The translations under genes were made by a program, and so were the position numbers. DNA of 64,000 bases from Terriglobia bacterium (GTDB lineage Bacteria > Acidobacteriota > Terriglobia > 20CM-2-55-15). Numbering within the stretch: position 1 is the first letter of the stretch; every line of letters starts with the position of its first letter. Below, piece by piece: positions 5,519 through 64,000 of this stretch. The DNA lies in assembly GCA_965198225.1 (NCBI GenBank), contig CBDAOY010000008.1, forward strand, positions 768,012-832,011, read 5' to 3'. Below the pieces are notes generated by a model, which did not search any database, had not been told where the DNA came from, and saw only the letters and a list, made by a program, of their open reading frames with translations.

Positions 5519-6270
5519 ATCTGATCGAACTCCAGCGGGCTCTCCGACAACTCCGGCTCGGCGGCATTGCCGAGGTGTTGGAAACACGCCTCCACCAGGC
5601 CCAGACCGAAGCCATGGCGCCGATCGACTTGGTCTCTCGTCTGGTCTCGGATGAACTGGACCGTCGCAGCATCCGGTTGTTGGAACGGCGTCGGAAACAG
5701 GCCCGGTTCCGCGATCCCCAGAAGACGCTCGACTCCTTCGACTTTACTTTCAACAAGAAGATGAATCGTAGTCTGGTCTTCGACCTGGCGACGGGCGCCT
5801 TCATCTCCAGGCACGACGATGCCTTGTTTCTCGGTCCTCCTGGCACCGGCAAGAGTCATCTGGCTCAGGCCATCGGCTTGGCTGCCATTGAGCAGGGCTA
5901 TCGGGTCGTCTACCGTGAAACTCATGCGCTTCTCGACGACATCGCCGAAGCCACCATTGACGGTACCCGAAAGGAGTGCATGGAAGCTTTGGCGACGGTC
6001 CCGCTGCTGATCATCGACGATCTGGGGATGCGGAAGCTTCCTCCCACTGCAGCAGAGGAACTCCTCGAGATCGTGATGCGACGCTATGAACGGACCAGTA
6101 CGTTACTGACATCGAATCGACCCGTCCAAGACTGGGGAAAACTACTGGGTGATAGCGCCGCCGTCACAGCCATGCTGGACCGGCTGCTCCATCACGGCCA
6201 CATCCTCAAATGCGGCCCTCGGAGTTGGAGGACTAAAACGGGCTTGCCGAGTCCAGTCCCAAAGAGGTAG
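5515..6270 (+). CDS. istB: IS21-family helper ATPase IstB
   Basis: Walker A GPPGTGKSH, LLIIDDLG, ...TSNRPVQDWGKLLGD...; full length, 251 aa. Confidence 0.85.
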   Translation: MNLIELQRALRQLRLGGIAEVLETRLHQAQTEAMAPIDLVSRLVSDELDRRSIRLLERRRKQARFRDPQKTLDSFDFTFNKKMNRSLVFDLATGAFISRHDDALFLGPPGTGKSHLAQAIGLAAIEQGYRVVYRETHALLDDIAEATIDGTRKECMEALATVPLLIIDDLGMRKLPPTAAEELLEIVMRRYERTSTLLTSNRPVQDWGKLLGDSAAVTAMLDRLLHHGHILKCGPRSWRTKTGLPSPVPKR

Positions 6271-6289: not shown

Positions 6290-6345
6290 ATCCCCGTTGG
6301 CCGGTTTTGAAGTGACCATCGTTGGCCGGTTTTGAAGTGACCACT
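6290..6345. repeat. Direct repeats CGTTGGCCGGTTTTGAAGTGACCA x2, likely IstA-binding repeats of the IS21 right end
   Basis: Two 24-nt direct copies 3 nt apart immediately downstream of istB, as expected for multi-repeat IS21 termini. Confidence 0.4.
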
Positions 6346-6612
6346 GAGGCCCGGAGCGATGCGCATCCATAGGTCCGGGTTGTGGCGAAGTGGATCGATT
6401 GAAGGGTTGGCTAAAGAGGGGTCGGAGCCTCTTCCTCGTCCTGCCCGGGTGACAATATAGATACGAATTGGCAGATCCCCAGGGACGAAATGGCAATGGG
6501 CGTAATCCACTGATACAAAAGGGGATGCGAACTCACACGAAAGCTCGGGGAAACAGCCCTGGTGCTGATATCATGGTTCGATATCAACCAATCGGAGGTT
6601 CGCAGCGCAGCC

Positions 6613-14061: not shown

Positions 14062-14336
14062 CTAGTGACCTGTAACAGTGCTATCGGTACCAGCGTTCGG
14101 CGGAACGGCGTCGGATTCTAGGAGTGACGCCCGAGCCAATGCTGTTTCATTGCGAGGGCGTTACGACACCGAAGACGGCGCCGTTGGGCCGAACCCTTCG
14201 GGCCGATGGGGGTTGCGGGCGATCTCTTTGTCGGAAGCCGTCACCGATGAAAGAGCATCGCTTTCCGTCTCCCTCCTCGACCTCGCCCGCAAGACCCATC
14301 GGCGATGGTGCCGATAGCACTGTTACAGGCCACTAG
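14062..14336. mobile_element. MITE copy A (275 bp; TIR CTAGTGACCTGTAACAGTGCTATCGGTACCA ... TGGTGCCGATAGCACTGTTACAGGCCACTAG; TA duplication in a CTAG target)
   Basis: Near-identical reverse-complement copy at 51729-52003, diverged copy at 35240-35514; intergenic; internal ORFs not credible. Confidence 0.75.
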
Positions 14337-14395
14337 ATGTCGATTCCGAGAAACATCTTCCCCTTATCGGGTCGCTGACTCAAGGGTTCTCTTCG

Positions 14396-18841: not shown

Positions 18842-19981
18842 TCATCGGCTTGAATTCGAGTTGGAGTTGCCGTTCGAGTTGGAGTTGCCGTTCGAATTGA
18901 AGTTGCCGTTCGAGTTGGAGTTGCTGTTCGAGTTGGAGTTGCTGTTCGAGTTGGAGTTGGAGTTGCTGTTGCTGTTGGAGTTGCCGTTCGAATTGGAGTT
19001 GGAGTTCGTGTTCGAGTTGGAGTTCGTGTTGCCACCACCACCATTGGCGTTGCCGCCATTGCCGTTGCCCCCGGAGGGCGTCGTCATGAAGCCGAGGATC
19101 CCGCTCCGCCGAAGCGTGACGTCGGAGCTGAGGGTCACGTTGATCTGATTACCCGAGACGGGGTGGTTCTGACTCGCGAAGGATGTGACCGAGAGGTTGA
19201 TCCGCGTGATATTGCCGAGGGTGCCGGTCGGAACCGAACTCTGTCCGCTACCGCCGCCGCTACCACCGCTGCCACCGCTACCGCCGTTCCCGTTGGAATT
19301 TGTGTTGCCGTTGGAGTTCGAATTCGTGTTGCCGTTCGAGTTCGTGTTGCCGTTCGAGTTTGAATTCGAGTTGGAGTTGCTGTTCGAGTTGGAGTTGCTG
19401 TTCTGGTTGGAGTTGCTGTTTGAGTTGGAATTGCCGTTCTGCGCTGCCAACGTGATGAAGCCCCATCGGCGGAGGAGTCGAGCGACGGGAGACGCCGTGG
19501 GTGACGGGGGATTGCTGACGAAGCTTCCGGCATCACCGGTCGACACGAAATACGCAAAGAGCAACGCCGAGATATTGGATGCCAGTTGCTGCGACGTCGC
19601 CGTGCCTGTCAGGGCACCGGTCGCGTCCAACGGTTGTGTCGTCCGTGTGATGATGTTGTTGGCGTAGCTGAACGTCACCCGTTCGACCGTTCCGTCATCA
19701 TTCGTGTCGCCCGAAAAGGCGACCGTGGACTGATCGGCCTGGGCGATCGGCGTCACACCGGCGGGAGTGTTGTAGCCGGCGGACAGCAATTCCCGCCCGA
19801 TGCGTTCGGCTGCGAGCCGGGAATTCTGGCCGGCCTCGAGCTGGGACTGCTGGATCTGATAGGTTCTCTGATTCTGGGTGACGAGGAGAAAGACCGCTCC
19901 GAGGACGACCATCAACACAGCCACAACGATCAAGACTTCCAGCAGGGTGAAACCTTTGCTTCCTCTCTGTGCAGCTCTCAT
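18842..19981 (-). CDS. PilW/GspJ-like prepilin-type minor pilin with a long Asn/Ser/Gly-rich repetitive C-terminal tail
   Basis: Class III signal ...SKG|FTLLEVLIVVAVLMVVLGAV; C-terminal (NSNSNG)n, GGSGGSGGSGGGSG and (NSNSNS)n tracts encoded by hexanucleotide repeats. Confidence 0.6.
   Translation of the reverse strand: MRAAQRGSKGFTLLEVLIVVAVLMVVLGAVFLLVTQNQRTYQIQQSQLEAGQNSRLAAERIGRELLSAGYNTPAGVTPIAQADQSTVAFSGDTNDDGTVERVTFSYANNIITRTTQPLDATGALTGTATSQQLASNISALLFAYFVSTGDAGSFVSNPPSPTASPVARLLRRWGFITLAAQNGNSNSNSNSNQNSNSNSNSNSNSNSNSNGNTNSNGNTNSNSNGNTNSNGNGGSGGSGGSGGGSGQSSVPTGTLGNITRINLSVTSFASQNHPVSGNQINVTLSSDVTLRRSGILGFMTTPSGGNGNGGNANGGGGNTNSNSNTNSNSNSNGNSNSNSNSNSNSNSNSNSNSNSNSNGNFNSNGNSNSNGNSNSNSSR
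18850..19032. repeat. Tandem hexanucleotide/18-nt repeat tract 1 (GAGTTG/GAGTTC units) inside the pilW-like gene
   Basis: gttcgagttggagttgccgttcgagttggagttgc... repeated; encodes (NSNSNG)n on the minus strand. Confidence 0.75.
19288..19440. repeat. Tandem hexanucleotide repeat tract 2 inside the pilW-like gene, preceded by a GGTAGCGGC repeat (19237-19290)
   Basis: gttggagttcgaattcgtgttgccgttcgagtt... encodes NSNSNSN; the GGS-coding repeat lies immediately upstream on the coding strand. Confidence 0.75.
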
Positions 19982-20000
19982 AGACAAACTCTCCCTCGTG

Positions 20001-20405
20001 TTACGGGGCCCGATAGGTTCGGGCCGAGAGGTCGATCGGCGATGTTCCACCGATACCGGTGATAACGGTCGTGGTCACCGTGATCTCTTTCATCCCGACG
20101 CCCGGGGAATCGACTGTGACGGTCCAGGATCGGGTGAAGGCAGCTCCTGTCTCGGAAGTTTGCGGAATCCCGTCATCGTCCAGAAAGTCATTTCCGCTCT
20201 GCAAGGAATCATACGATGTGGCCTTCAATTCCTCCATCTTTTGTCGCAGGGCGGAGGTCATCCTCGAGATGTCCTGACTGTTCTTCGTTCCGATGACACT
20301 GGTGCTCATCGCGCCGGCCACCGCGAGGACGCCCGTCATCAGGATGAGCGAGGCAAGCATCAACTCGATGAGGCTGAAGCCTCTCTGGCTACTGGATGCT
20401 GACAT
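20001..20405 (-). CDS. PilV/GspI-like prepilin-type minor pilin
   Basis: N-terminus MSASSSQRG|FSLIELMLASLILMTGVLAV is a prepilin cleavage/methylation motif; 134 aa. Confidence 0.65.
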   Translation of the reverse strand: MSASSSQRGFSLIELMLASLILMTGVLAVAGAMSTSVIGTKNSQDISRMTSALRQKMEELKATSYDSLQSGNDFLDDDGIPQTSETGAAFTRSWTVTVDSPGVGMKEITVTTTVITGIGGTSPIDLSARTYRAP

Positions 20406-22570: not shown

Positions 22571-23806
22571 ATGAAGAACGCGAAACTGCACGCCTTCAAC
22601 AGACTCGCATTTGGGCCGCGGCAGGAAGATCTCGATCGCGATCTGGTCGATCTTCAGGAACACGTCGAGGTCCAGCTCCACCCGGCCGACATCGCCGACC
22701 AGGCGATAGAGCAGCGGCTGGCGACCCTGGAAACGCTCGGCATGTCGCCCCTGGAGTTCCTGAGGAAGTATCCCGGGCGCCGGGACTGGCGGATCGGTTT
22801 GCAGCAGCTGACGGCCGCAAAGCTGCTGCGCGCCGTCCAAAGCGAATGCCAGCTCCGGGAAGTGATGGTCGACTTCTGGTTCAATCACTTCAACGTATTC
22901 GCGGGTAAAGGTGCATGCCGGCTCCTGGTTTCTTCCTACGAGAGAGACGCCATCCGCCCGTACGTCTTCGGAAAGTTTCGCGAACTGGTGTCGGCGACGG
23001 CGCGCCACCCTGCGATGCTGTTCTACCTGGACAACTGGCTGAGCGCGTCGCCCGACGCCGAGCCGCGTGGGCGTCGTCGTGGGCTCAACGAGAACTATGC
23101 CCGGGAGTTGATGGAACTGCACACGCTCGGCGTCGATGGTGGCTACACGCAGGAAGACGTCGTCGCCGTGGCGCGCGCCTTCACCGGCTGGACGATAGAG
23201 GCCCCCCGGCGCCCGAGCTTCATGTTTGCCCCACCGCTGCATGACGACGGTGCCAAGACCGTCCTTGGCAGGGCGATAGACGGCGGCGGGATGCGGGATG
23301 GCGAACAGGTGATCGATGTGCTCTGTGGTCACCCGTCTGCGGCGCGGTTTGTCGCGACCAAATTGATTCGGCGTTTCGTCTCCGACGATCCCCCTGCGGC
23401 GCTGGTGGAGAGTGTGGCGCGGACGTTTACCCGGACGGATGGCGACATCCGGGAGATGCTCCGCGTGGTGATCCATTCGCGGGAGTTCGCCGAATCGGAA
23501 CAGCAGAAGGTCAAGACGCCGTTCGAGTTCGTCATCAGCGCCGTGCGTGCGCTCGGAGCCGAGGTGAGCAATCCCGGTATTCTCGCGCGGTTCCTGCAGC
23601 GGATGGGTCAGCCGCTCTACATGGCCATACCGCCGACCGGCTACTCCGACGAGGCGGCCGATTGGATGAGCTCCGGCACGCTGATGTTGCGTCTCAACTT
23701 CGTGGCGCAGATCGCTGCGGGGCGATCGCGGGGAATTCAGCTCGACGGGCGCGAGCCGGAGCAGATCGTCAGGAATCTGGGGACGCCGGAGTTTCAGCGG
23801 CGCTAG
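22571..23806 (+). CDS. DUF1800 family protein
   Basis: ...WFNHFNVFAGKGACRLLVSSYERDAIRPYVFGKFRELVSATARHPAMLFYLDNWLS... is the diagnostic DUF1800 block; pairs with a DUF1501 gene. Confidence 0.7.
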   Translation: MKNAKLHAFNRLAFGPRQEDLDRDLVDLQEHVEVQLHPADIADQAIEQRLATLETLGMSPLEFLRKYPGRRDWRIGLQQLTAAKLLRAVQSECQLREVMVDFWFNHFNVFAGKGACRLLVSSYERDAIRPYVFGKFRELVSATARHPAMLFYLDNWLSASPDAEPRGRRRGLNENYARELMELHTLGVDGGYTQEDVVAVARAFTGWTIEAPRRPSFMFAPPLHDDGAKTVLGRAIDGGGMRDGEQVIDVLCGHPSAARFVATKLIRRFVSDDPPAALVESVARTFTRTDGDIREMLRVVIHSREFAESEQQKVKTPFEFVISAVRALGAEVSNPGILARFLQRMGQPLYMAIPPTGYSDEAADWMSSGTLMLRLNFVAQIAAGRSRGIQLDGREPEQIVRNLGTPEFQRR

Positions 23807-24077
23807 CAGCCCGTGGCAGAACTCTGCAGGGCCGCGTTACGGCCAAACGGGGACCGGATTCTAGGAGGCGAGGACGAAACAATGCTCATTCATTGGGAGG
23901 AGTCGGCGACAACGAAGACGGCCCCATTTCGCCGTAACCCGAAGGGCGCAGGGGGGGGCGGGCCGCAGGCTTTGTCGCTCGTCGGTCACGATGAATGATC
24001 ATCGCTCCGCTCCTCTCTTCGCGCCTGCAACCCGAAGACCCCTGCGCGCGACCCTCCAGAGTTCTGCCACGGGCTGC
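23806..24077. mobile_element. MITE copy D: same roughly 210-bp core as copies A/B/C but different 30-bp termini (GCAGCCCGTGGCAGAACTCTGCAGGGCCGC ... inverted), with TA duplication
   Basis: Core blocks cggattctaggag, aatgct..ttcattg.gagg, cgaca.cgaagacggc, ctttgtcg and gtcac.gatgaa.ga.catcgct are shared with 14062-14336; flanked by TA/TA; sits between the DUF1800 and DUF1501 genes. Confidence 0.55.
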
Positions 24078-24122
24078 TATAGGGATGTTATTTCTGATTC
24101 AGGACGCCAGTTGGGTGAGGGA

Positions 24123-35239: not shown

Positions 35240-35514
35240 CTAGTGGCCTGTAACGGAGATATCGGCACCATCGCCGATGGGTCTTGCCAGTCGAGGTCGA
35301 GGAGAGAGGAGGAATTGATGCGGTTTCATCATGACGACGAACGACAAAGAGATCGACGGCAACCCCCATCGGCCCGGAGGGTTGCGGCGGAACGGCACCG
35401 TCTTCGTTGTCGCTCCTCCTCGCAATGTAGGCGCATTACCTCGTCGTCGACTCCTAGAATCCGGTGCCGTTCCACCGCAACGCTGGTACCGATATCTCCG
35501 TTACAGGCCACTAG
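35240..35514. mobile_element. MITE copy B (diverged; CTAGTGGCCTGTAACGGAGATATCGGCACCA ... TGGTACCGATATCTCCGTTACAGGCCACTAG) inserted exactly between the gnd stop and the FGGY-kinase start
   Basis: Same termini and core as 14062-14336 and 51729-52003; the gnd TAG stop lies in the right CTAG, the kinase GTG is 1 nt from the left CTAG. Confidence 0.7.
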
Positions 35515-39704: not shown

Positions 39705-41102
39705 ATGAAACTCAGGACCCTGTCGGTCGCGAGTATTATTCCGTTGCTCTTCGGGCCAGCCGCCGCCGCGGCGGCGCCGCAAGAAGCCGCATCTGTAGCT
39801 GTGAACTCCGGGGATACAGCCTGGATCATGGTTTGCTCCGCCCTCGTACTGCTCATGACGATTCCGGGCCTGGCGCTTTTCTACGGCGGCCTGGTCCACA
39901 CGAAAAACGTTCTGGCCACTTTGATGCAGAGCTTCATCATTGCAGCACTCATCAGCGTTCAGTGGGTTGTGATTGGCTACAGTCTGGCCTTCTCTCCGGG
40001 TGCACTCATCGGTGGGTTGGATTGGATCGGGCTCCAGGGTGTCGGTCTGGAACCCGGGATGTATTCCGACACGATTCCGCACCAGGCCTTCATGGTGTTC
40101 CAGTTGATGTTTGCCATCATCACCCCGGCACTGATGACCGGAGCCTTTGCCGAGCGGATGAAGTTCAGCACGTTCCTGGTGTTCACGCTCCTCTGGGCAA
40201 CCTTCATTTACGACCCCTTGGCTCACTGGGTCTGGGGCTCGGGCGGATGGCTTGGCGAGCTGGGAGCGCTGGATTTTGCCGGCGGAACCGTCGTGCACAT
40301 CAGTTCGGGCATCTCCGCGCTTGTCGCTGCGCTCATGATCGGACGCCGGATCAATTACGGTCACATGACACCGCCCCACAACCTTCCGTTCACCGTGCTC
40401 GGTGCATCGCTCCTGTGGGTTGGCTGGTTCGGCTTCAACGCCGGATCATCGCTTGCGGCGGATGGCCTGGCGGTCAGCGCTTTTGTCGTGACCAACACCG
40501 CGGGTGCGTCCGGTGTGCTGGGGTGGATGGGCGCGGAGTGGTTCACCAAGGGGAAGCCGACTATGCTGGGCGCCGCGACCGGTGCGGTTGCGGGCCTGGT
40601 GGCGATCACTCCCGCGGCGGGCTTCGTCGGGCCGGTGTCGGCCATCGCGATCGGTTTCATCGCGGGCAAGCTGTGCTACTGGGCCTGCGAGCTGAAAGCC
40701 CGACTCGGTTATGACGACGCGCTCGACGTCGTGGGCGTCCATGGCGTCGGCGGAGTGTGGGGCGCCCTGGCGACCGGTGTGTTCGCATCGACTGCCGTGA
40801 ACCCGGATGGCGCAAATGGACTGCTCTACGGAAATCCCGGTCTGGTATGGACCCAGTTCATCGCCGTCGTCGCCACGGTGGCCTTCGCTGGAATCGGAAC
40901 CTTCCTGATCCTCAGCTTGCTGAAGGTCGTGATGGGGCTGCGTGTCACTGCCGAGGAGGAGCAACTGGGCCTGGACATGAGCCAGCACAGCGAGAATGCC
41001 TACGCGTTCGAACCGACCGGGTATGGGGAATCAGCGCCGGAGTGGGCCCTGGAGGAAACGGGGAAGGGTGTGCCCGCGGAGGGATCGGTGTTGGAGTCGT
41101 AG
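39705..41102 (+). CDS. amt: Ammonium transporter (Amt/MEP family)
   Basis: Signal peptide, 11 TM; ...DTAWIMVCSALVLLMTIPGLALFYGGLV..., ...DFAGGTVVHISSG... signatures; ORF 39678 trimmed to ATG 39705. Confidence 0.85.
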   Translation: MKLRTLSVASIIPLLFGPAAAAAAPQEAASVAVNSGDTAWIMVCSALVLLMTIPGLALFYGGLVHTKNVLATLMQSFIIAALISVQWVVIGYSLAFSPGALIGGLDWIGLQGVGLEPGMYSDTIPHQAFMVFQLMFAIITPALMTGAFAERMKFSTFLVFTLLWATFIYDPLAHWVWGSGGWLGELGALDFAGGTVVHISSGISALVAALMIGRRINYGHMTPPHNLPFTVLGASLLWVGWFGFNAGSSLAADGLAVSAFVVTNTAGASGVLGWMGAEWFTKGKPTMLGAATGAVAGLVAITPAAGFVGPVSAIAIGFIAGKLCYWACELKARLGYDDALDVVGVHGVGGVWGALATGVFASTAVNPDGANGLLYGNPGLVWTQFIAVVATVAFAGIGTFLILSLLKVVMGLRVTAEEEQLGLDMSQHSENAYAFEPTGYGESAPEWALEETGKGVPAEGSVLES

Positions 41103-41273
41103 GCCGTAGGCCGTTGCGCGTAGGCCGATGGGCCAACCGAACAGGTCGTCTCCATCCGACTGCAGCTCACATTGTCACACCGCGGACCGTCAGTGCGGGA
41201 CACCATCGACCGTTATGCGTCCCTAACGGCCTACGGCCTACGTTCTTCATCCGCGGCCTACGTTCTTCACGAA
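41100..41273. repeat. Family-3 element: GTAGGCCGTAGGCCGTT... ...AACGGCCTACGGCCTACG inverted termini around a roughly 110-bp core
   Basis: Related copy at 42585-42735; fragments at 350-375 and 8030-8056; overlaps the amt stop and the oadB-like stop. Confidence 0.5.
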
Positions 41274-42584: not shown

Positions 42585-42768
42585 GTAGGCCGTAGGCCGT
42601 TATCCGTTGTCCGTTCAGTGCCCGACAAGGTTTCCTCAGTCCGACAGCCGTTCAAGCCTGAGGTATGCGAACTGTCATTGCTGGCGGATGTCAACGGTCA
42701 TGCTCCCCTAACGGCCTACGGACAACGGCCTACGGATTGGGAGCATCGGCCTTCAGCCGATGCTCCCA
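42585..42768. repeat. Family-3 element (GTAGGCCGTAGGCCGTTATCCGTTGTCCGTT ... AACGGCCTACGGACAACGGCCTACGG) plus an adjacent 14-bp-stem hairpin over the biotin-carrier stop
   Basis: Inverted termini about 100 nt apart; hairpin TTGGGAGCATCGGC-cttca-GCCGATGCTCCCAA at 42736-42768. Confidence 0.5.
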
Positions 42769-51728: not shown

Positions 51729-52003
51729 CTAGTGGCCTGTAACAGTGCTATCGGTACCATCGCCGATGGGTCTTGCGGGCGAGGTCGAGGAGGGAGACGG
51801 AAAGCGATGCTCTTTCATCGGTGACGGCTTCCGACAAAGAGATCGCCCGCAACCCCCATCGGCCCGAAGGGTTCGGCGGAACGGCGCCGTCTTCGGTGTC
51901 GTAACGCCCTCGCAATGAAACAGCATTGGCTCGGGCGTCACTCCTAGAATCCGACGCCGTTCCGCCGAACGCTGGTACCGATAGCACTGTTACAGGTCAC
52001 TAG
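51729..52003. mobile_element. MITE copy C (reverse-complement, near-identical to copy A)
   Basis: CTAGTGGCCTGTAACAGTGCTATCGGTACCA...TGGTACCGATAGCACTGTTACAGGTCACTAG; spurious ORFs 51729..51941 and 51748..51987 mirror those in copy A. Confidence 0.75.
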
Positions 52004-54508: not shown

Positions 54509-54650
54509 GTTTGAAATTGGAGATTGCAGATTCGAGATTTGAGATTAGTTGCGGAGCCGGTCCCGGGAGCAGTCGGCCGTCTTGGTCCTGCCTTTACGTC
54601 TTTCAATGTCCGATTTCGAATCTCGAATGATGAAATCTCGAATAGCTGTT
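54509..54650. repeat. Low-GC inverted-repeat block (ATTGGAGATTGCAGATTCGAGATTTGAGATT ... TTCGAATCTCGAATGATGAAATCTCGAAT), related to the tandem repeat at 61562-62072
   Basis: Shares the ATTGGAGATTG...AGATTT block with the 220-bp repeat unit; intergenic. Confidence 0.35.
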
Positions 54651-56712: not shown

Positions 56713-56919
56713 TTCCTCAGATTATAGCTATCCGCATAGCCCACCGCGAACCGCCAGCCACTAGCCCGGATTATTCATGAATTGTCTACTGCAGCGGCGG
56801 ATACACTCGCAGATACGGCGTTGCGCTAACGGGCCGGCCTCGGCATTTGATCCAGACACCCCGTCCTCGCGCGCCTTGTCTCTGCCGCGTCTCCACCGCT
56901 TCGCGACGACAACCACGAA

Positions 56920-60770: not shown

Positions 60771-61451
60771 ATGCAGAAAGTTCTCGTCGTCGAAGATGAA
60801 CCGGACATGAGTCTGGGTTTGAAGGACAACCTGGAATTCGAGGGGTACGATGTCGCCGTCGCAAGCGACGGCCAGGAAGGGCTGGACCTGGCACAGGCAA
60901 GCCGTCCCGACTTGATTCTTCTGGACGTGATGCTGCCGAAGATGAGCGGCCTGGACGTCTGCCGCAGCTTGCGCAGCCTGGGGGCCGACATGCCGATCAT
61001 CATGCTGACGGCGCGCAGCCAGGAGGTCGACACGGTCGTCGGCCTGGAGGTCGGCGCGGACGACTACGTCACCAAACCTTTCAGCATCAAGGAACTGCTC
61101 GCCCGGGTTCGGGCCCAACTGCGTCGGGCCTCAAAGCAGGTCATCGAAGTCGATACTTATACATTTGGTGACGTCGAGCTTTTCTTCAAGAAACACCAGG
61201 CCCGGAAAGCCGGCCAACCGATCGACCTCTCTCCACGTGAATTCGACATGCTCAAATACTTCATCCGACACGCGGGCAACGCGATCAGTAGAGACGAGTT
61301 GCTCAACCATGTCTGGGGGTATACGAGCTTTCCTCTCACGCGCACGGTCGACAATCATGTCGCCAGGCTGCGTCAGAAACTGGAAAACACTCCTTCCGAG
61401 CCCAAACACATCATCACGGTCCACCGCGTGGGCTACAAGTTCGTCGAGTAG
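60771..61451 (+). CDS. OmpR/PhoB-family response regulator
   Basis: REC domain (...[17 protein letters not shown]...) plus a winged-helix C-terminus (...[11 protein letters not shown]). Confidence 0.85.
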
Positions 61452-61561
61452 GCCGTCAAGCTGGAGGTGCCGCGAGAGAGCCACTGTGAGGGGGACAGGG
61501 GTATAGCCCTGTCCCCGGGTTTTGACTACGCAGAAAAGTGGCGGAACGAACGGTACAGGCG

Positions 61562-62072
61562 GGTGTAGGTGCGCTCTATGAGCGCACGTGTTTCGATTTG
61601 AAGAGTGTGCGGTCATAGACCGCACCTACACGTATCGCAAATTGCGATATTTGAAAGAATCCACATTGCAGGTTGCTCATTGGAGATTGTTTTCATTTCA
61701 GATTTCCGACCAATAAGAAATCGAGCAATTTGCAATCTCCAAATTTCCACTGCGGAATCGTCCAGTGACCAATCTGCAATGGCTGTCGGACGAGGTCCCC
61801 AGCCACCTCACTCGATCGAGTAGAGTGTGCGGTCATAGACCGCACCGACACCTATCGCAATTGCGAGATTTGAAAAGAATCCACATTGCAGGTTGCTCAT
61901 TGGAGATTGTTTCATTTCAGATTTCCGACCAATAAGAAATCGAGCAATTTGCAATCTCCAGATTTCCAATGCGGAATCGTCCAATGACCAATCTGCAATA
62001 GCTGTCGGACGAGGTCCCCAGCCATCTCCCTCGATCGAGTAGAGTGTGCGGTCATAGACCGCACCTACACGT
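61562..62072. repeat. Tandem repeat: two roughly 220-bp low-GC units, each bounded by the hairpin GAGTGTGCGGTC-ATA-GACCGCAC(C)TACAC(G) (three hairpin copies at 61603, 61823, 62042) and preceded by a variant hairpin at 61562
   Basis: Unit period 220/219 bp with about 95% identity between units; GC content well below the window average. Confidence 0.75.
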
Positions 62073-62102
62073 CATGCAGCGATACAGGCCGGGATTGCCG
62101 GG

Positions 62103-64000
62103 TTACTTGGGGTCCTGGTTCCACCAATACTGTTCCGGTAATTTCTTCTCTTCCGGCCAGATCTGATCCAGCGTGTCTCCCTCGAAGATTTCGCCGTTCT
62201 TCATGACGTAGCGGATCGAATTCGTGTTCCGGATGTCCTCGAGCGGGTTGCGATCCAGGACGACGAGGTCGGCGAGTTTTCCGGCCTCCAACGAACCGAC
62301 GTCCTGCCGGTAGCCGATAGCCTCGGCGCCGAATATCGTTGCGACCCGCAGCGCGTCGTGGTTAGGCATCCCTCCCGACTGCATCGACCACAACTCCCAG
62401 TGATAGCCGATGCCTTGCATCTGGCCGTGGCTGCCCACTCCGGCCCGTCCTCCGGCCGCGACGATGTCGGCGACCCCTTTCGCGATCCCTTTATGGCCGT
62501 ACTCTTCTGGAAGGAACCACTGGCCCCGTCTCCGAACCATGCTGTCGAGCAGTTCGTGAGGGATGAAGCGACGGAGTTTCATGTCGCCGTGCACATCGGT
62601 TGTCTCGAAGAAATGGTTCTCCGTCCACGGAGCGCCGTAGGCAACCAGAGTCGTCGGGGTGTAGAAGGTCCTGGTGCCAGCGACGAATCGGGCCACATCG
62701 TTGTAGAGCGGCTGGATCGGCAGGCTGTGCTCCAGACCCGTGAAACCGTCCGACATTTGCGATAGGTCGAGCTTCATGTCGAGGCCGCCCTCCGTGGTGG
62801 GCATGATGCCGAACTCGCGGGCTGCCATGATCACCCACTGACGGACGATGCGGTCGCCCGACATGTACGCCTTGATCGTCGGCGTCCGGTAGGCCTCCTT
62901 GTAGCGCATGATGAAGTCGCGGGTCGCTTCTTTGTCGTCGAGCCCGGAACGCGAGAAGACGCCGGGGCCGGTCGCGAAAACCCGCGGCCCGAGGATTTCT
63001 CCGGTTTCGACAAGGTCGCTGTAGGAGAAGACATCGGTCGTCGACGTCTGAGGGTCCCGGGTGGTCGTCACTCCGTAGGCGAGGTTGGCCAGGTACTGCC
63101 ACACCTGTGTCTGGTGTACGCCACGCGGCGCCCACATGTGGGCGTGGGTGTCGACGAGTCCAGGGATGATGAACTTTCCGCTGACCTCGATCTCTTCCGT
63201 TCCCGCCGGTACTGGAAGGGTTCCACGGGCGCCGACCCCGACGATTCGGTTTGCCGTGACGAGGATTTCCCCATCTTTGATGACTTGATCGTCGCGCATC
63301 GTGATGATGCTGGCGCCGCGGAGCACGACGCTCCCGGAAGGCCGCGCCCGGGTAGCTTCGATCACCGCGACCGAGACTTCCGGAAACGCAGAATCCGGCC
63401 GGCGCCGGTAGAATGTGTCTCCGAGAGCCCAGGTCAACCACTCCCCGTCCTTGCTCCAGCCAAGATAATCGCCACCCTCTGCGGAGAGTTTGGTGACCGG
63501 CACGTTAGCCGAGTCCTCTCCGGCGATACTGATCCGTATGGTCTCCTTGCCTGCGGAGGGAACCGAGATCAGGTAGTGCTTATTCTGCAGGCTGACGAAC
63601 GCCCTCATTCCGTCCGGAGAGATGTGAATCTGCTCGGCCGTCGGCTTGTTCGGTCCGGCTCCGGTTCCACTGATCCGGAAGTGTGTTTTTCGGTCCAGCC
63701 CGTCCAGTCGCAGAGAGCCCAGACCGCTGTTGGACGTGAAGTAGACGCGCTCAGGGTCGCTCGTGAAATGCGGAAAACGACCTCCCTGAGTTCCCGCGAT
63801 CAGGGTGGAATCGCCTCCCGAGGAGGGAATCCAGCGCAGGTCCAATCCGCTGCCGCGTGGAATGCCGCCGATTTCTCCAGCCCCGGAGCCGTCGTCGTAG
63901 GGTAGGTCCGGCTCCTGTTGTTGGAGATCGGAAAAGAGCTGACCCGCCGTCGAGCCGGAAATGAACACGATCTTTTCGCCGTCGGGCGAGTAAACCGGGT
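62103..64000 (-). CDS. Amidohydrolase-family (metal-dependent hydrolase) protein with an N-terminal TolB-like beta-propeller region; N-terminus lies outside the window
   Basis: ...GLVDTHAHMWAPRG... metal-binding motif and other amidohydrolase blocks; upstream half has beta-propeller-like repeats; the open frame continues to the window edge. Confidence 0.6.
   Translation of the reverse strand, partial: PVYSPDGEKIVFISGSTAGQLFSDLQQQEPDLPYDDGSGAGEIGGIPRGSGLDLRWIPSSGGDSTLIAGTQGGRFPHFTSDPERVYFTSNSGLGSLRLDGLDRKTHFRISGTGAGPNKPTAEQIHISPDGMRAFVSLQNKHYLISVPSAGKETIRISIAGEDSANVPVTKLSAEGGDYLGWSKDGEWLTWALGDTFYRRRPDSAFPEVSVAVIEATRARPSGSVVLRGASIITMRDDQVIKDGEILVTANRIVGVGARGTLPVPAGTEEIEVSGKFIIPGLVDTHAHMWAPRGVHQTQVWQYLANLAYGVTTTRDPQTSTTDVFSYSDLVETGEILGPRVFATGPGVFSRSGLDDKEATRDFIMRYKEAYRTPTIKAYMSGDRIVRQWVIMAAREFGIMPTTEGGLDMKLDLSQMSDGFTGLEHSLPIQPLYNDVARFVAGTRTFYTPTTLVAYGAPWTENHFFETTDVHGDMKLRRFIPHELLDSMVRRRGQWFLPEEYGHKGIAKGVADIVAAGGRAGVGSHGQMQGIGYHWELWSMQSGGMPNHDALRVATIFGAEAIGYRQDVGSLEAGKLADLVVLDRNPLEDIRNTNSIRYVMKNGEIFEGDTLDQIWPEEKKLPEQYWWNQDPK

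What the first reader, a model, noticed from the sequence alone, without database searches (positions are those of the whole stretch)
61562..62072. Low-GC 220-bp tandem repeat bounded by identical hairpins, directly downstream of the two-component system; related block at 54509-54650
Two roughly 95%-identical 220-bp units, each starting with the hairpin GTGCGGTC-ATA-GACCGCAC, plus a third hairpin copy closing the array. GC content is far below the window average. There are no ORFs, CRISPR-like spacers or IS termini. Candidate explanations: tandem sRNA genes, a transcription-factor binding array, or a satellite-like element. The region at 54509-54650 shares the ATTGGAGATTG...AGATTT block.
Basis: seen in the sequence. 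Interest (0 to 1): 0.5.

Follow-up and report, generated by a model that had tools for sequence, protein, structure and literature searches.

The report
REP hairpin cluster with companion repeat
The 220-bp tandem repeat is a cluster of REP elements (small GTAG-tagged palindromes, here widespread in soil Acidobacteria) in which one REP plus an AT-rich 190-bp companion repeat has been duplicated; this is ordinary mobile junk DNA, not tied to the neighbouring two-component system.

Summary
In detail: 61602-62070 is a 219-bp tandem repeat, 2.1 copies, 94% identical, at 48% GC in a 61% GC window. The same 651-bp gap is present in three independent contigs.

The hairpins are GTAG-type REPs. There are four, not three. 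The extra, inverted one at 61565-87 forms a canonical inverted REP doublet (REPIN-like) with the second hairpin.

The same 23-mer occurs more than 400 times in 190 stretches from at least 9 Terriglobia assemblies and from soil metagenomes. It occurs mostly as inverted doublets 19-27 nt apart, with compensatory stem variants and a bias towards gene 3' ends.

The AT-rich ~190-bp core is a second dispersed repeat, with 5 more copies in one related MAG and one at the orthologous site of a close relative. It usually abuts a REP end.

In close relatives the orthologous gap is empty (10 bp), holds only a terminator-like hairpin (90 bp), or holds REP-core-REP once (375 bp). The array is therefore a recent insertion plus a duplication, probably by unequal exchange between directly repeated REPs.

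No RAYT transposase was found in about 1 Mb of sampled sequence, so the mobilising enzyme remains inferred. There is no Rfam, promoter, terminator, plasmid or phage match.

Verdict: a new member of a known kind, of low-to-moderate interest.

The parts
61470..61546 (+). 'T' module: a ~75-nt dispersed, terminator-like hairpin (stem GGGGACAGGG/CCCTGTCCCC at 61491-61516, followed by GGGTTTTG) just downstream of the response-regulator stop codon.
   Evidence: Inverted repeat I13. ssDNA fold z = -4.1. Copies at 85-92% identity in L007, L015 and L033. It is the only insert at the orthologous site in L198/L199.
61562..61632 (.). Inverted REP doublet (REPIN-like; an 'HH dimer'): a C-type REP, a 19-nt spacer, then a G-type REP, with the GTAG tags facing outward.
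   Evidence: 25-nt arms, 92% complementary. Folds as one long hairpin, ssDNA z = -8.2. The whole 70-nt doublet recurs at 90-94% identity in many tiles of MAG CBDAPB01.
61565..61587 (+). REP 1 (C-type): GTAG + GTGCGCTC-TAT-GAGCGCAC.
61607..61629 (-). REP 2 (G-type): GTAG + GTGCGGTC-TAT-GACCGCAC, read on the minus strand.
61633..61821 (+). Core copy 1. It contains the palindrome TATCGCAA-A-TTGCGATA, a long AT-rich imperfect hairpin (61664-61781) built of ATTnnAG heptads, and a GC-richer tail (GGTCCCCAGCC...CTCGATCGAG).
   Evidence: Inverted repeats I4 and I18. RNA fold z = -5.6 on the plus strand and -3.6 on the minus strand. Dispersed copies at 92-95% identity in L041, L007, L031 and L029, a rearranged partial copy in L005, and an orthologous-site copy in L197.
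61827..61849 (-). REP 3 (G-type). Its tag is degraded to GTCG.
   Evidence: One mismatch to the consensus. Fold.
61852..62040 (+). Core copy 2 (long hairpin at 61884-61999). It is 94.8% identical to copy 1.
62046..62068 (-). REP 4 (G-type). It closes the array.
61602..62070 (.). The tandem repeat as a whole: (REP + core) x 2 plus a closing REP, period 219-220.
54509..54650 (.). A separate heptad-rich inverted repeat (ATTGGAG ATTGCAG ATTCGAG ATTTGAG ... AATCTCGAAT) in the gap between the aldehyde dehydrogenase and M48 peptidase genes. It is not a copy of the unit.
   Evidence: It is polymorphic for presence: absent in L199, left arm only in L197, present in L200.

Best explanation
The locus is a BIME-like cluster of GTAG-type repetitive extragenic palindromes (REPs). 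It sits in a permissive gap between two convergent genes.

From left to right it contains a dispersed terminator-like hairpin (T), a canonical inverted REP doublet (REPIN-like), and two tandem copies of an AT-rich ~190-bp companion repeat followed by a REP.

Shown here:
- The hairpins have the defining REP anatomy.
- They belong to a large family spread through Terriglobia genomes.
- The core is a second dispersed repeat that usually abuts a REP end.
- The whole block is an insertion, with copy-number variation, at this exact site among close relatives.

Inferred:
- REPs and doublets are spread as single-stranded hairpins by a RAYT-type HUH tyrosine transposase that recognises the hairpin plus GTAG.
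- An ancestral doublet-core-REP arrangement, in which two G-type REPs are direct repeats of about 30-39 nt, became (core-REP) x 2 by unequal sister-strand exchange or replication slippage.
- The core hitch-hikes with REPs.
- Any cellular effect is generic to REPs (3'-end hairpins that can stall exonucleases or transcription) and has nothing to do with the two-component system.
For: REP anatomy: each hairpin is an 8-bp stem with a 3-nt loop. On one side only it carries GTAG. The tag is one-sided in 101 of 108 strict hairpins, and loop orientation (TAT or ATA) is tied to the tag side.

Stem pairing is preserved. At the two stem positions left free (N) in the collection scan, 114 of 119 matches (incl. 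window and L001-L004 copies of this locus) are complementary at both positions. There are two main compensatory types, GGTC/GACC (74) and GCTC/GAGC (35). Other compensatory variants are seen.

Dispersal: at least 71 stretches in GTDB genomes, almost all Terriglobia or Solibacteraceae MAGs, and at least 120 in soil metagenomes. In total 412 REPs were counted in 190 stretches. There are 121 inverted doublets with tags outward, with a modal spacer of 19-27 nt, often pairing a C-type with a G-type REP.

Position bias: 40 clusters lie between convergent genes, 53 between tandem genes and only 10 between divergent genes.

A second inverted REP pair lies 8.6 kb beyond the window end.

The core recurs at 92-95% identity at 5 non-orthologous loci of MAG CBDAPB01 (one of them a rearranged partial copy) and at the orthologous site in L197. 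All 5 dispersed copies lie between convergent, functionally unrelated genes. In 4 of 7 copies the core starts 0-2 nt after a REP end. L007 carries the same T + doublet + core + REP composite at a different locus.

Orthologous-site series:
- Empty 10-bp gap in L200 and L202.
- T only, 90 bp, in L198 and L199.
- REP-core-REP once, 375 bp, in L197 and L203.
- 651 bp here.

Against: No RAYT/Y1_Tnp gene was found in the window or in about 1 Mb of REP-bearing sequence. The search used phmmer with E. coli RayT and a HuH...Y..NP motif search. No transposase-like family recurs next to the REPs. The mobilising enzyme is therefore unproven.

REP density in the window is low: one cluster in 64 kb.

Direct (head-to-tail) REP arrangements, as in this array, are the rare configuration both in the literature and here: 18 direct pairs against 121 inverted.

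The two units are as diverged from each other (94.8%) as from the orthologous single unit in L197 (94.8-95.3%). A local duplication therefore cannot be told apart from two separate insertions, or from loss of a unit in L197.

The origin and any function of the core are unknown.
Confidence: 0.8

Rival explanations
1. The core + REP unit is itself a non-autonomous single-strand transposon, similar to the palindrome-associated elements derived from IS200/IS605. It would insert immediately 3' of the CTAC(AC) tail of an existing REP. On this reading the two units arrived by two insertions rather than by local duplication.
For: In 4 of 7 copies the core begins 0-2 nt after ...CCTACAC. There are no terminal inverted repeats or obvious target duplications. 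Each unit ends in a subterminal hairpin + CTAC. The composites recur at unrelated loci. The two units are no closer to each other than to the copy in L197.
Against: The left-end palindrome (TATCGCAA/TTGCGATA) is unrelated to the right-end REP hairpin, whereas IS200/IS605 ends carry similar hairpins. L041 and L029 have cores that do not abut a REP. No transposase was found. Only about 8 copies are known.
Confidence: 0.15
2. Each unit is a small-RNA gene, or a structured 3'-UTR RNA element whose long AT-rich hairpin is functional.
For: The core folds significantly better than shuffles, and better on the plus strand (z = -5.6) than on the minus strand (z = -3.6). G-T wobble pairs are legal only on the plus strand. 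Every copy lies downstream of a gene in the sense orientation.
Against: There is no promoter-like or terminator-like site and no Rfam match. Substitutions in L041 and L007 break stem pairs without compensation. The element is absent from the orthologous site in near relatives. It was not found in JGI metagenomes. Hairpin-forming ability is expected of any inverted-repeat mobile element.
Confidence: 0.05
3. The array is a set of binding sites for the adjacent OmpR-type response regulator or for a nucleoid protein.
For: The array is AT-rich and has phased heptads and a perfect 8-1-8 palindrome (TATCGCAAATTGCGATA). It lies directly downstream of the kinase and regulator genes. E. coli BIME-1 elements carry an IHF site between REPs; this last point is from prior knowledge and was not tested here.
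Against: The site is empty in relatives that keep the same kinase, regulator and downstream gene. Other copies flank unrelated genes and none flanks a two-component system. The array lies between two gene 3' ends, where there is no promoter to regulate.
Confidence: 0.03

Closest known systems
GTAG-type REPs and their inverted doublets (REPINs), as in Pseudomonas fluorescens SBW25 and E. coli (Bertels & Rainey 2011, PMC3116915; Di Nocera et al. 2013, PMC3733652)
   Same: A 23-nt element made of an unpaired GTAG tag and a short GC-rich palindrome. Compensatory stem sub-families. Predominant inverted doublets with tags outward and a conserved ~20-nt spacer, which fold into one long hairpin. Extragenic location with a bias towards 3' ends. 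Sharing among related species.
   Different: The host phylum is Acidobacteriota (class Terriglobia). Di Nocera's 2013 survey listed GTAG REPs in Proteobacteria, Cyanobacteria, Chloroflexi and the PVC group, and for Acidobacteria reported only RAYT-like genes flanked by long inverted repeats. No cognate RAYT was found here. The window copy is followed by two head-to-tail REPs.
BIMEs (bacterial interspersed mosaic elements) of E. coli and large REP clusters in other species
   Same: A mosaic of two REP sub-types with other conserved motifs between them. Clusters are built by tandem reiteration of a REP together with adjoining DNA. They lie between convergent genes.
   Different: The inter-REP module here is about 190 nt, AT-rich, itself a long hairpin and itself dispersed. 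E. coli inter-REP motifs are tens of nucleotides. REP orientation within the repeated part is direct rather than alternating.
R-family intergenic repeats of P. fluorescens (R0, R2, R6, R178 and others; Silby et al. 2009, PMC2718517)
   Same: Families of 50-350-bp intergenic repeats in a ~60% GC soil bacterium. Several consist of inverted REP-like arms flanking a variable core and fold as hairpins.
   Different: There the core GC content is near the genome average. Here it is 20 points lower. There is no sequence relationship.
MITEs (TIR-bounded miniature transposons)
   Same: Small, non-coding and dispersed, with hairpin-forming potential and presence/absence polymorphism.
   Different: The core has no terminal inverted repeats of its own and no evident target-site duplication. 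A genuine MITE family with ~30-nt TIRs is present elsewhere in the window and looks quite different.

Membership tests
GTAG-type REP | Short (20-40 nt) imperfect palindrome able to form a stem-loop. | tested here: met
   8-bp stem, 3-nt loop. ssDNA fold -9.3 kcal/mol, z about -4 for each copy.
GTAG-type REP | Unpaired GTAG tetranucleotide at one end only. | tested here: met
   GTAG or CTAC is on exactly one side in 101 of 108 strict hairpins, and the side correlates with loop orientation. Three of the four window copies carry GTAG; one carries GTCG. Caveat: the scan pattern required one tagged copy per stretch.
GTAG-type REP | Many dispersed copies, mostly extragenic and biased to gene 3' ends. 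| tested here: met
   412 copies in 190 stretches. 40 convergent, 53 tandem, 10 divergent and 10 apparently intragenic clusters, using heuristic gene calls. Roughly 0.5 clusters per 8 kb in MAG CBDAPB01. Whole-genome counts were not obtainable.
GTAG-type REP | Stem sub-families related by compensatory changes. | tested here: met
   114 of 119 matches (incl. window and L001-L004 copies of this locus) pair at both unconstrained stem positions. GGTC/GACC occurs 74 times and GCTC/GAGC 35 times.
REPIN-RAYT system | Two REPs in inverted orientation with a short conserved spacer act as the replicating unit. | tested here: met
   121 inverted doublets with a modal gap of 19-27 nt. The whole window doublet is 90-94% identical to many copies elsewhere.
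REPIN-RAYT system | A cognate single-copy RAYT (Y1 HUH transposase, Pfam Y1_Tnp) gene flanked by the same REPs. | tested here: inconclusive
   None was found in the window or in about 1.05 Mb of REP-bearing stretches.
REPIN-RAYT system | RAYT binds and cleaves single-stranded REP DNA in a GTAG-dependent way. | not testable with these tools
   This needs biochemistry.
BIME / REP cluster | Cluster of REPs of at least two sub-types interspersed with other conserved motifs. | tested here: met
   C-type and G-type REPs together with the T and core modules, each of which is independently dispersed.
MITE | Terminal inverted repeats at both ends of the element and a target-site duplication. | tested here: not met
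   The core's left end (TATCGCAAATTGCG) and right end (CTCGATCGAGTAGAGT) are not inverted copies of each other. The only flanking direct repeat is 13 nt at 85% identity and is offset from the ends (D5).
Known RNA family (Rfam) | Match to a curated covariance model. | tested here: not met
   No hits at gathering score in the window. Only chance-level hits with E >= 0.14 in 61440-62110.
CRISPR array | Short identical repeats separated by unique spacers of similar length. | tested here: not met
   The ~197-nt 'spacers' are 95% identical to each other and are dispersed elsewhere.

The most novel reading that the evidence does not exclude
The AT-rich core + REP is a previously undescribed cargo-carrying derivative of a REP/REPIN. 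It would be a ~220-nt non-autonomous single-strand element that uses one REP hairpin as its right end and integrates precisely at the CTAC tail of resident REPs, building head-to-tail arrays. This would make REP ends both the substrate and the target of the same (still unidentified) Acidobacterial HUH transposase.
Probability: 0.15. Interest if true: 0.5.

Novelty: new member of a known kind. Interest (0 to 1): 0.28.

Why it matters
The result explains a conspicuous low-GC repeat as ordinary REP/BIME-type mobile DNA and removes any implied link to the two-component system.

It documents a well-behaved GTAG REP/REPIN family shared by many uncultured soil Terriglobia. The 2013 catalogue of GTAG REPs did not list that phylum.

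The family offers three practical uses:
- A marker for strain typing.
- A known cause of assembly breaks in these MAGs.
- A natural series (empty site, T only, one unit, two units) for studying how REP clusters grow.

If the core + REP unit proves to insert at REP ends, it would bear on how REP arrays and BIMEs are built.

Tried and rejected
- Rfam at gathering score over the whole window, and at E <= 10 over 61440-62110: nothing meaningful.
- Sigma-70 promoter and intrinsic-terminator scans of 61300-62300: 0 sites each.
- blastn of the whole 651-bp gap against PLSDB plasmids and INPHARED phages: no match, so it is not a known plasmid or phage att or IS end. There was also no match to the IS elements present in strain variants L002 and L200.
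- Exact-pattern scan of JGI metagenomes for the core (TTGCGATATTTNAAAGAATCCACATTG): 0 hits. The core was also absent from the 120 REP-bearing metagenome stretches.
- RAYT search: a HuH/Y..NP regular expression and phmmer with E. coli RayT (taken from NC_000913.3) against all six-frame ORFs of the window and 190 stretches. Nothing below E = 2.6.
- Genes lying between REPs 400-2500 nt apart: ordinary genes.
- Clustering of REP-adjacent proteins: only large housekeeping paralogue families.
- Covariation in the long AT-rich hairpin: the few substitutions are disruptive, not compensatory.
- Diversity-generating retroelement (template/variable repeat) idea: differences between the units are not adenine-specific, and nothing is coding. 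I did not look for a reverse transcriptase beyond the Pfam scan of eight neighbouring genes, which found none.
- Homology between the unit and 54509-54650: only short heptad-level similarity.

Full report

Yes. Tandem Repeats Finder reports 61602-62070 with period 219, 2.1 copies, 94% matches and score 852. The repeat finder shows 161-nt and 39-nt direct families at 219/220-nt spacing.

The repeat fills most of a 651-bp gap between two convergent genes. One is an OmpR-type response regulator (60771-61451, plus strand), which follows its histidine kinase. The other is a large Tricorn/amidohydrolase-type protein that ends at 62103 on the minus strand.

GC content is 48% across the array and 40% in its central hairpin, against 61% for the window.

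Three contigs from other samples carry the same 651-bp gap, two of them identical and one with a single mismatch. The structure is therefore not an assembly artefact.

There is also a fourth, inverted copy at 61563-61587 with a compensatory stem change. None of 100 shuffles gave any match.

**2. What the hairpins are**

Read on the strand where the loop is TAT, each hairpin is GTAG followed by GTGCG(G/C)TC-TAT-GA(G/C)CGCAC. An unpaired GTAG tag plus a short GC-rich palindrome is the defining anatomy of GTAG-type REPs (PMC3733652).

I scanned one genome per GTDB species with GTAGGTGCGNNCTATGNNCGCAC. Almost all came from Terriglobia or Solibacteraceae MAGs, covering at least 9 assemblies. The same pattern returned 120 stretches from JGI soil metagenomes, again truncated.

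At the two stem positions left as N in the pattern, 114 of 119 matches (this count includes the window's own copies and those in L001-L004, which are contigs of the same locus) are complementary at both. They fall into two compensatory types: GGTC/GACC (74) and GCTC/GAGC (35).

Among strict hairpins, the tag is on exactly one side in 101 of 108, and the side is tied to loop orientation.

Allowing up to 3 substitutions gives 412 REPs in 190 stretches. The dominant arrangement is an inverted pair with tags outward: 121 pairs, with a modal spacer of 19-27 nt. These often combine a C-type with a G-type REP. This is the 'HH dimer with conserved spacer', or REPIN, architecture.

Window positions 61562-61632 form exactly such a doublet. 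It folds as a single long hairpin (ssDNA z = -8.2). As a whole it is 90-94% identical to many copies in MAG CBDAPB01.

With heuristic gene calls, REP clusters lie between convergent genes (40) or tandem genes (53) far more often than between divergent genes (10). This is as described for REPs generally.

Another inverted REP pair lies 8.6 kb beyond the window end.

**3. What lies between the hairpins**

The ~190-nt AT-rich core has three parts:
- A perfect palindrome, TATCGCAA-A-TTGCGATA.
- A long imperfect hairpin (61664-61781) built of ATTnnAG heptads.
- A GC-richer tail.

It is a second dispersed repeat. Copies at 92-95% identity occur in CBDAPB01 tiles L041, L007, L031 and L029 (the last two 3'-truncated), plus a rearranged partial copy in L005 (76-96% over its two matching blocks). 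There is also one at the orthologous site in L197.

All five dispersed copies lie between convergent genes. Their neighbours are functionally unrelated: Nramp, OpuAC, radical SAM, OmpA, CO-dehydrogenase flavoprotein, glycosyltransferase, HD and NYN proteins.

In four of seven copies the core starts 0-2 nt after the CCTACAC end of a REP. L007 carries the same composite (T + doublet + core + REP) at a non-orthologous locus.

The core was not found in JGI metagenomes, so it appears to be restricted to this lineage.

The core folds better than shuffled sequence, and somewhat better on the plus strand. However, the few substitutions among copies disrupt the stems rather than compensate. One-nucleotide indels exclude coding. 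There is no promoter, terminator or Rfam match.

The upstream T module (61470-61546) is also a dispersed, terminator-like hairpin.

**4. Comparative evidence at this exact site**

I used homologues of the neighbouring kinase to fetch the orthologous locus from relatives (sequences).

| Kinase identity to window | Contigs | Gap length | Content |
|---|---|---|---|
| 92% | L200, L202 | 10 bp | Empty |
| 93% | L198, L199 | 90 bp | T hairpin only |
| 96% | L197, L203 | 375 bp | REP-core-REP, one unit |
| 100% | window, L001-L003 | 651 bp | T + doublet + (core + REP) x 2 |

L203 comes from the same sample as the window.

The block is therefore a recent insertion with copy-number variation, not a conserved feature of the two-component operon.

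The three units (window unit 1, window unit 2 and L197) are about equally diverged from one another, at 94.8-95.3%. Hence a local duplication, two separate insertions, or loss of a unit in L197 cannot be told apart.

**5. Mechanism**

*Shown:* REP identity by anatomy, dispersal, compensatory stems, doublet organisation, 3'-end bias, modular mosaicism, and insertion and copy-number polymorphism.

*Inferred from established knowledge of REP/RAYT systems (PMC3116915; PMC3733652):*
- REPs and doublets are mobilised as single-stranded hairpins by a RAYT.
- The 219-bp period (core + REP) arose by unequal exchange or slippage between the two directly repeated G-type REPs that flank a core. These share the 39-nt sequence AGAGTGTGCGGTCATAGACCGCACC....
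- Any cellular effect is the generic REP one, namely 3' hairpins.

The weak point is the transposase. No Y1/HUH ORF was found in the window or in about 1 Mb of REP-bearing DNA. No transposase-like family recurs beside REPs. Because both scans were truncated and RAYTs are single-copy, this result is inconclusive rather than negative.

**6. The block at 54509-54650**

It shares the 11-mer ATTGGAGATTG and the heptad style with the core. It is not a copy of the unit. Its fold is unremarkable (z = -0.13).

It is also polymorphic for presence among relatives: absent in L199, half present in L197, present in L200. It is a separate small intergenic inverted repeat.

**7. Comparison with known systems, and verdict**

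[quoted passage not shown] It also resembles the REP-armed R-family repeats of P. fluorescens.

What is new is modest:
- The host clade. Di Nocera's 2013 survey did not list GTAG REPs in Acidobacteria.
- The AT-rich companion repeat that tends to abut REP ends.

I rate it a new member of a known kind, interest about 0.28. There is a minority reading (about 15%) that core + REP is a REP-end-targeting, cargo-carrying element.

Noticed in passing
window 14062-14337 (-), 35240-35514 (+), 51729-52003 (+); related subfamily at 23798-24079: A MITE-like family of ~275 bp with ~30-nt terminal inverted repeats (CTAGTGGCCTGTAACAGTGCTATCGGCACC ... GGTACCGATAGCACTGTTACAGGTCACTAG). All copies lie in intergenic gaps. 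The 14-kb and 51-kb copies are 97-99% identical to copies in MAG CBDAPB01 tiles L031, L034 and L039; the 35-kb copy only 82-83%. The family is unrelated to the REPs.
   Followed up: partly
window 61470-61546; L007 4238-4307; L015 1474-1549; L033 5378-5425: A dispersed ~75-nt terminator-like hairpin ('T': GGGGACAGGG-loop-CCCTGTCCCC followed by GGGTTTTG). It sits just after gene stop codons and is often followed by a REP. It is the sole insert at the orthologous site in L198/L199.
   Followed up: partly
window 54509-54650: A heptad-periodic inverted repeat (ATTGGAG ATTGCAG ATTCGAG ATTTGAG ...) between the aldehyde dehydrogenase and M48 peptidase genes. Among close relatives it is present, half present or absent. 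No structural or family assignment was made.
   Followed up: partly
L066 1020-1110; L129 2860-2990: Other Terriglobia carry intergenic inverted arrays of a 9-mer (TACGC[A/G]GAT repeated, then its reverse complement). This is a different periodic hairpin-forming repeat and is unexplained.
   Followed up: no
L001 19756-19940 (8.6 kb beyond the window end): A second inverted REP pair, one arm degraded, with a 134-nt GC-rich spacer, between a DUF507 gene and an SDF transporter gene. The ~35 nt upstream of its intact REP resembles the GC-rich tail of the core.
   Followed up: partly
L002 2769-5904; L200 3457-4790 (the region orthologous to window ~56750-56900): Strain and species variants carry IS insertions between the fatty-acid hydroxylase and Cys/Met-metabolism genes: Transposase_mut + DDE_Tnp_1 in L002 and an IS3-type HTH_Tnp_1/rve in L200. 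The window has no such insertion there.
   Followed up: no
window 18855-19441: Dense 6/18/36/42-nt tandem repeats (GAGTTG / GTTCGA units) inside a long minus-strand ORF (18842-20050). This is probably a low-complexity repeat protein.
   Followed up: no
window 6295-6354: A perfect 25-nt x 2 tandem repeat (CGTTGGCCGGTTTTGAAGTGACCAT) in the gap between ORFs ending at 6270 and starting at 6562.
   Followed up: no
window 41098-41242 and 42585-42736: Several short 7/14-nt tandem repeats containing GTAGGCC / ACGGCCT (CGTAGGC, GTAGGCC, AACGGCCTACGGAC). They do not match the REP described here.
   Followed up: no
L203 3001-5333: In one 96%-related contig from the same sample as the window, the kinase is called as a truncated 436-aa product. 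The next gene is called as a 346-aa fusion of HATPase and response-regulator domains. This suggests a frameshift or sequencing error.
   Followed up: no
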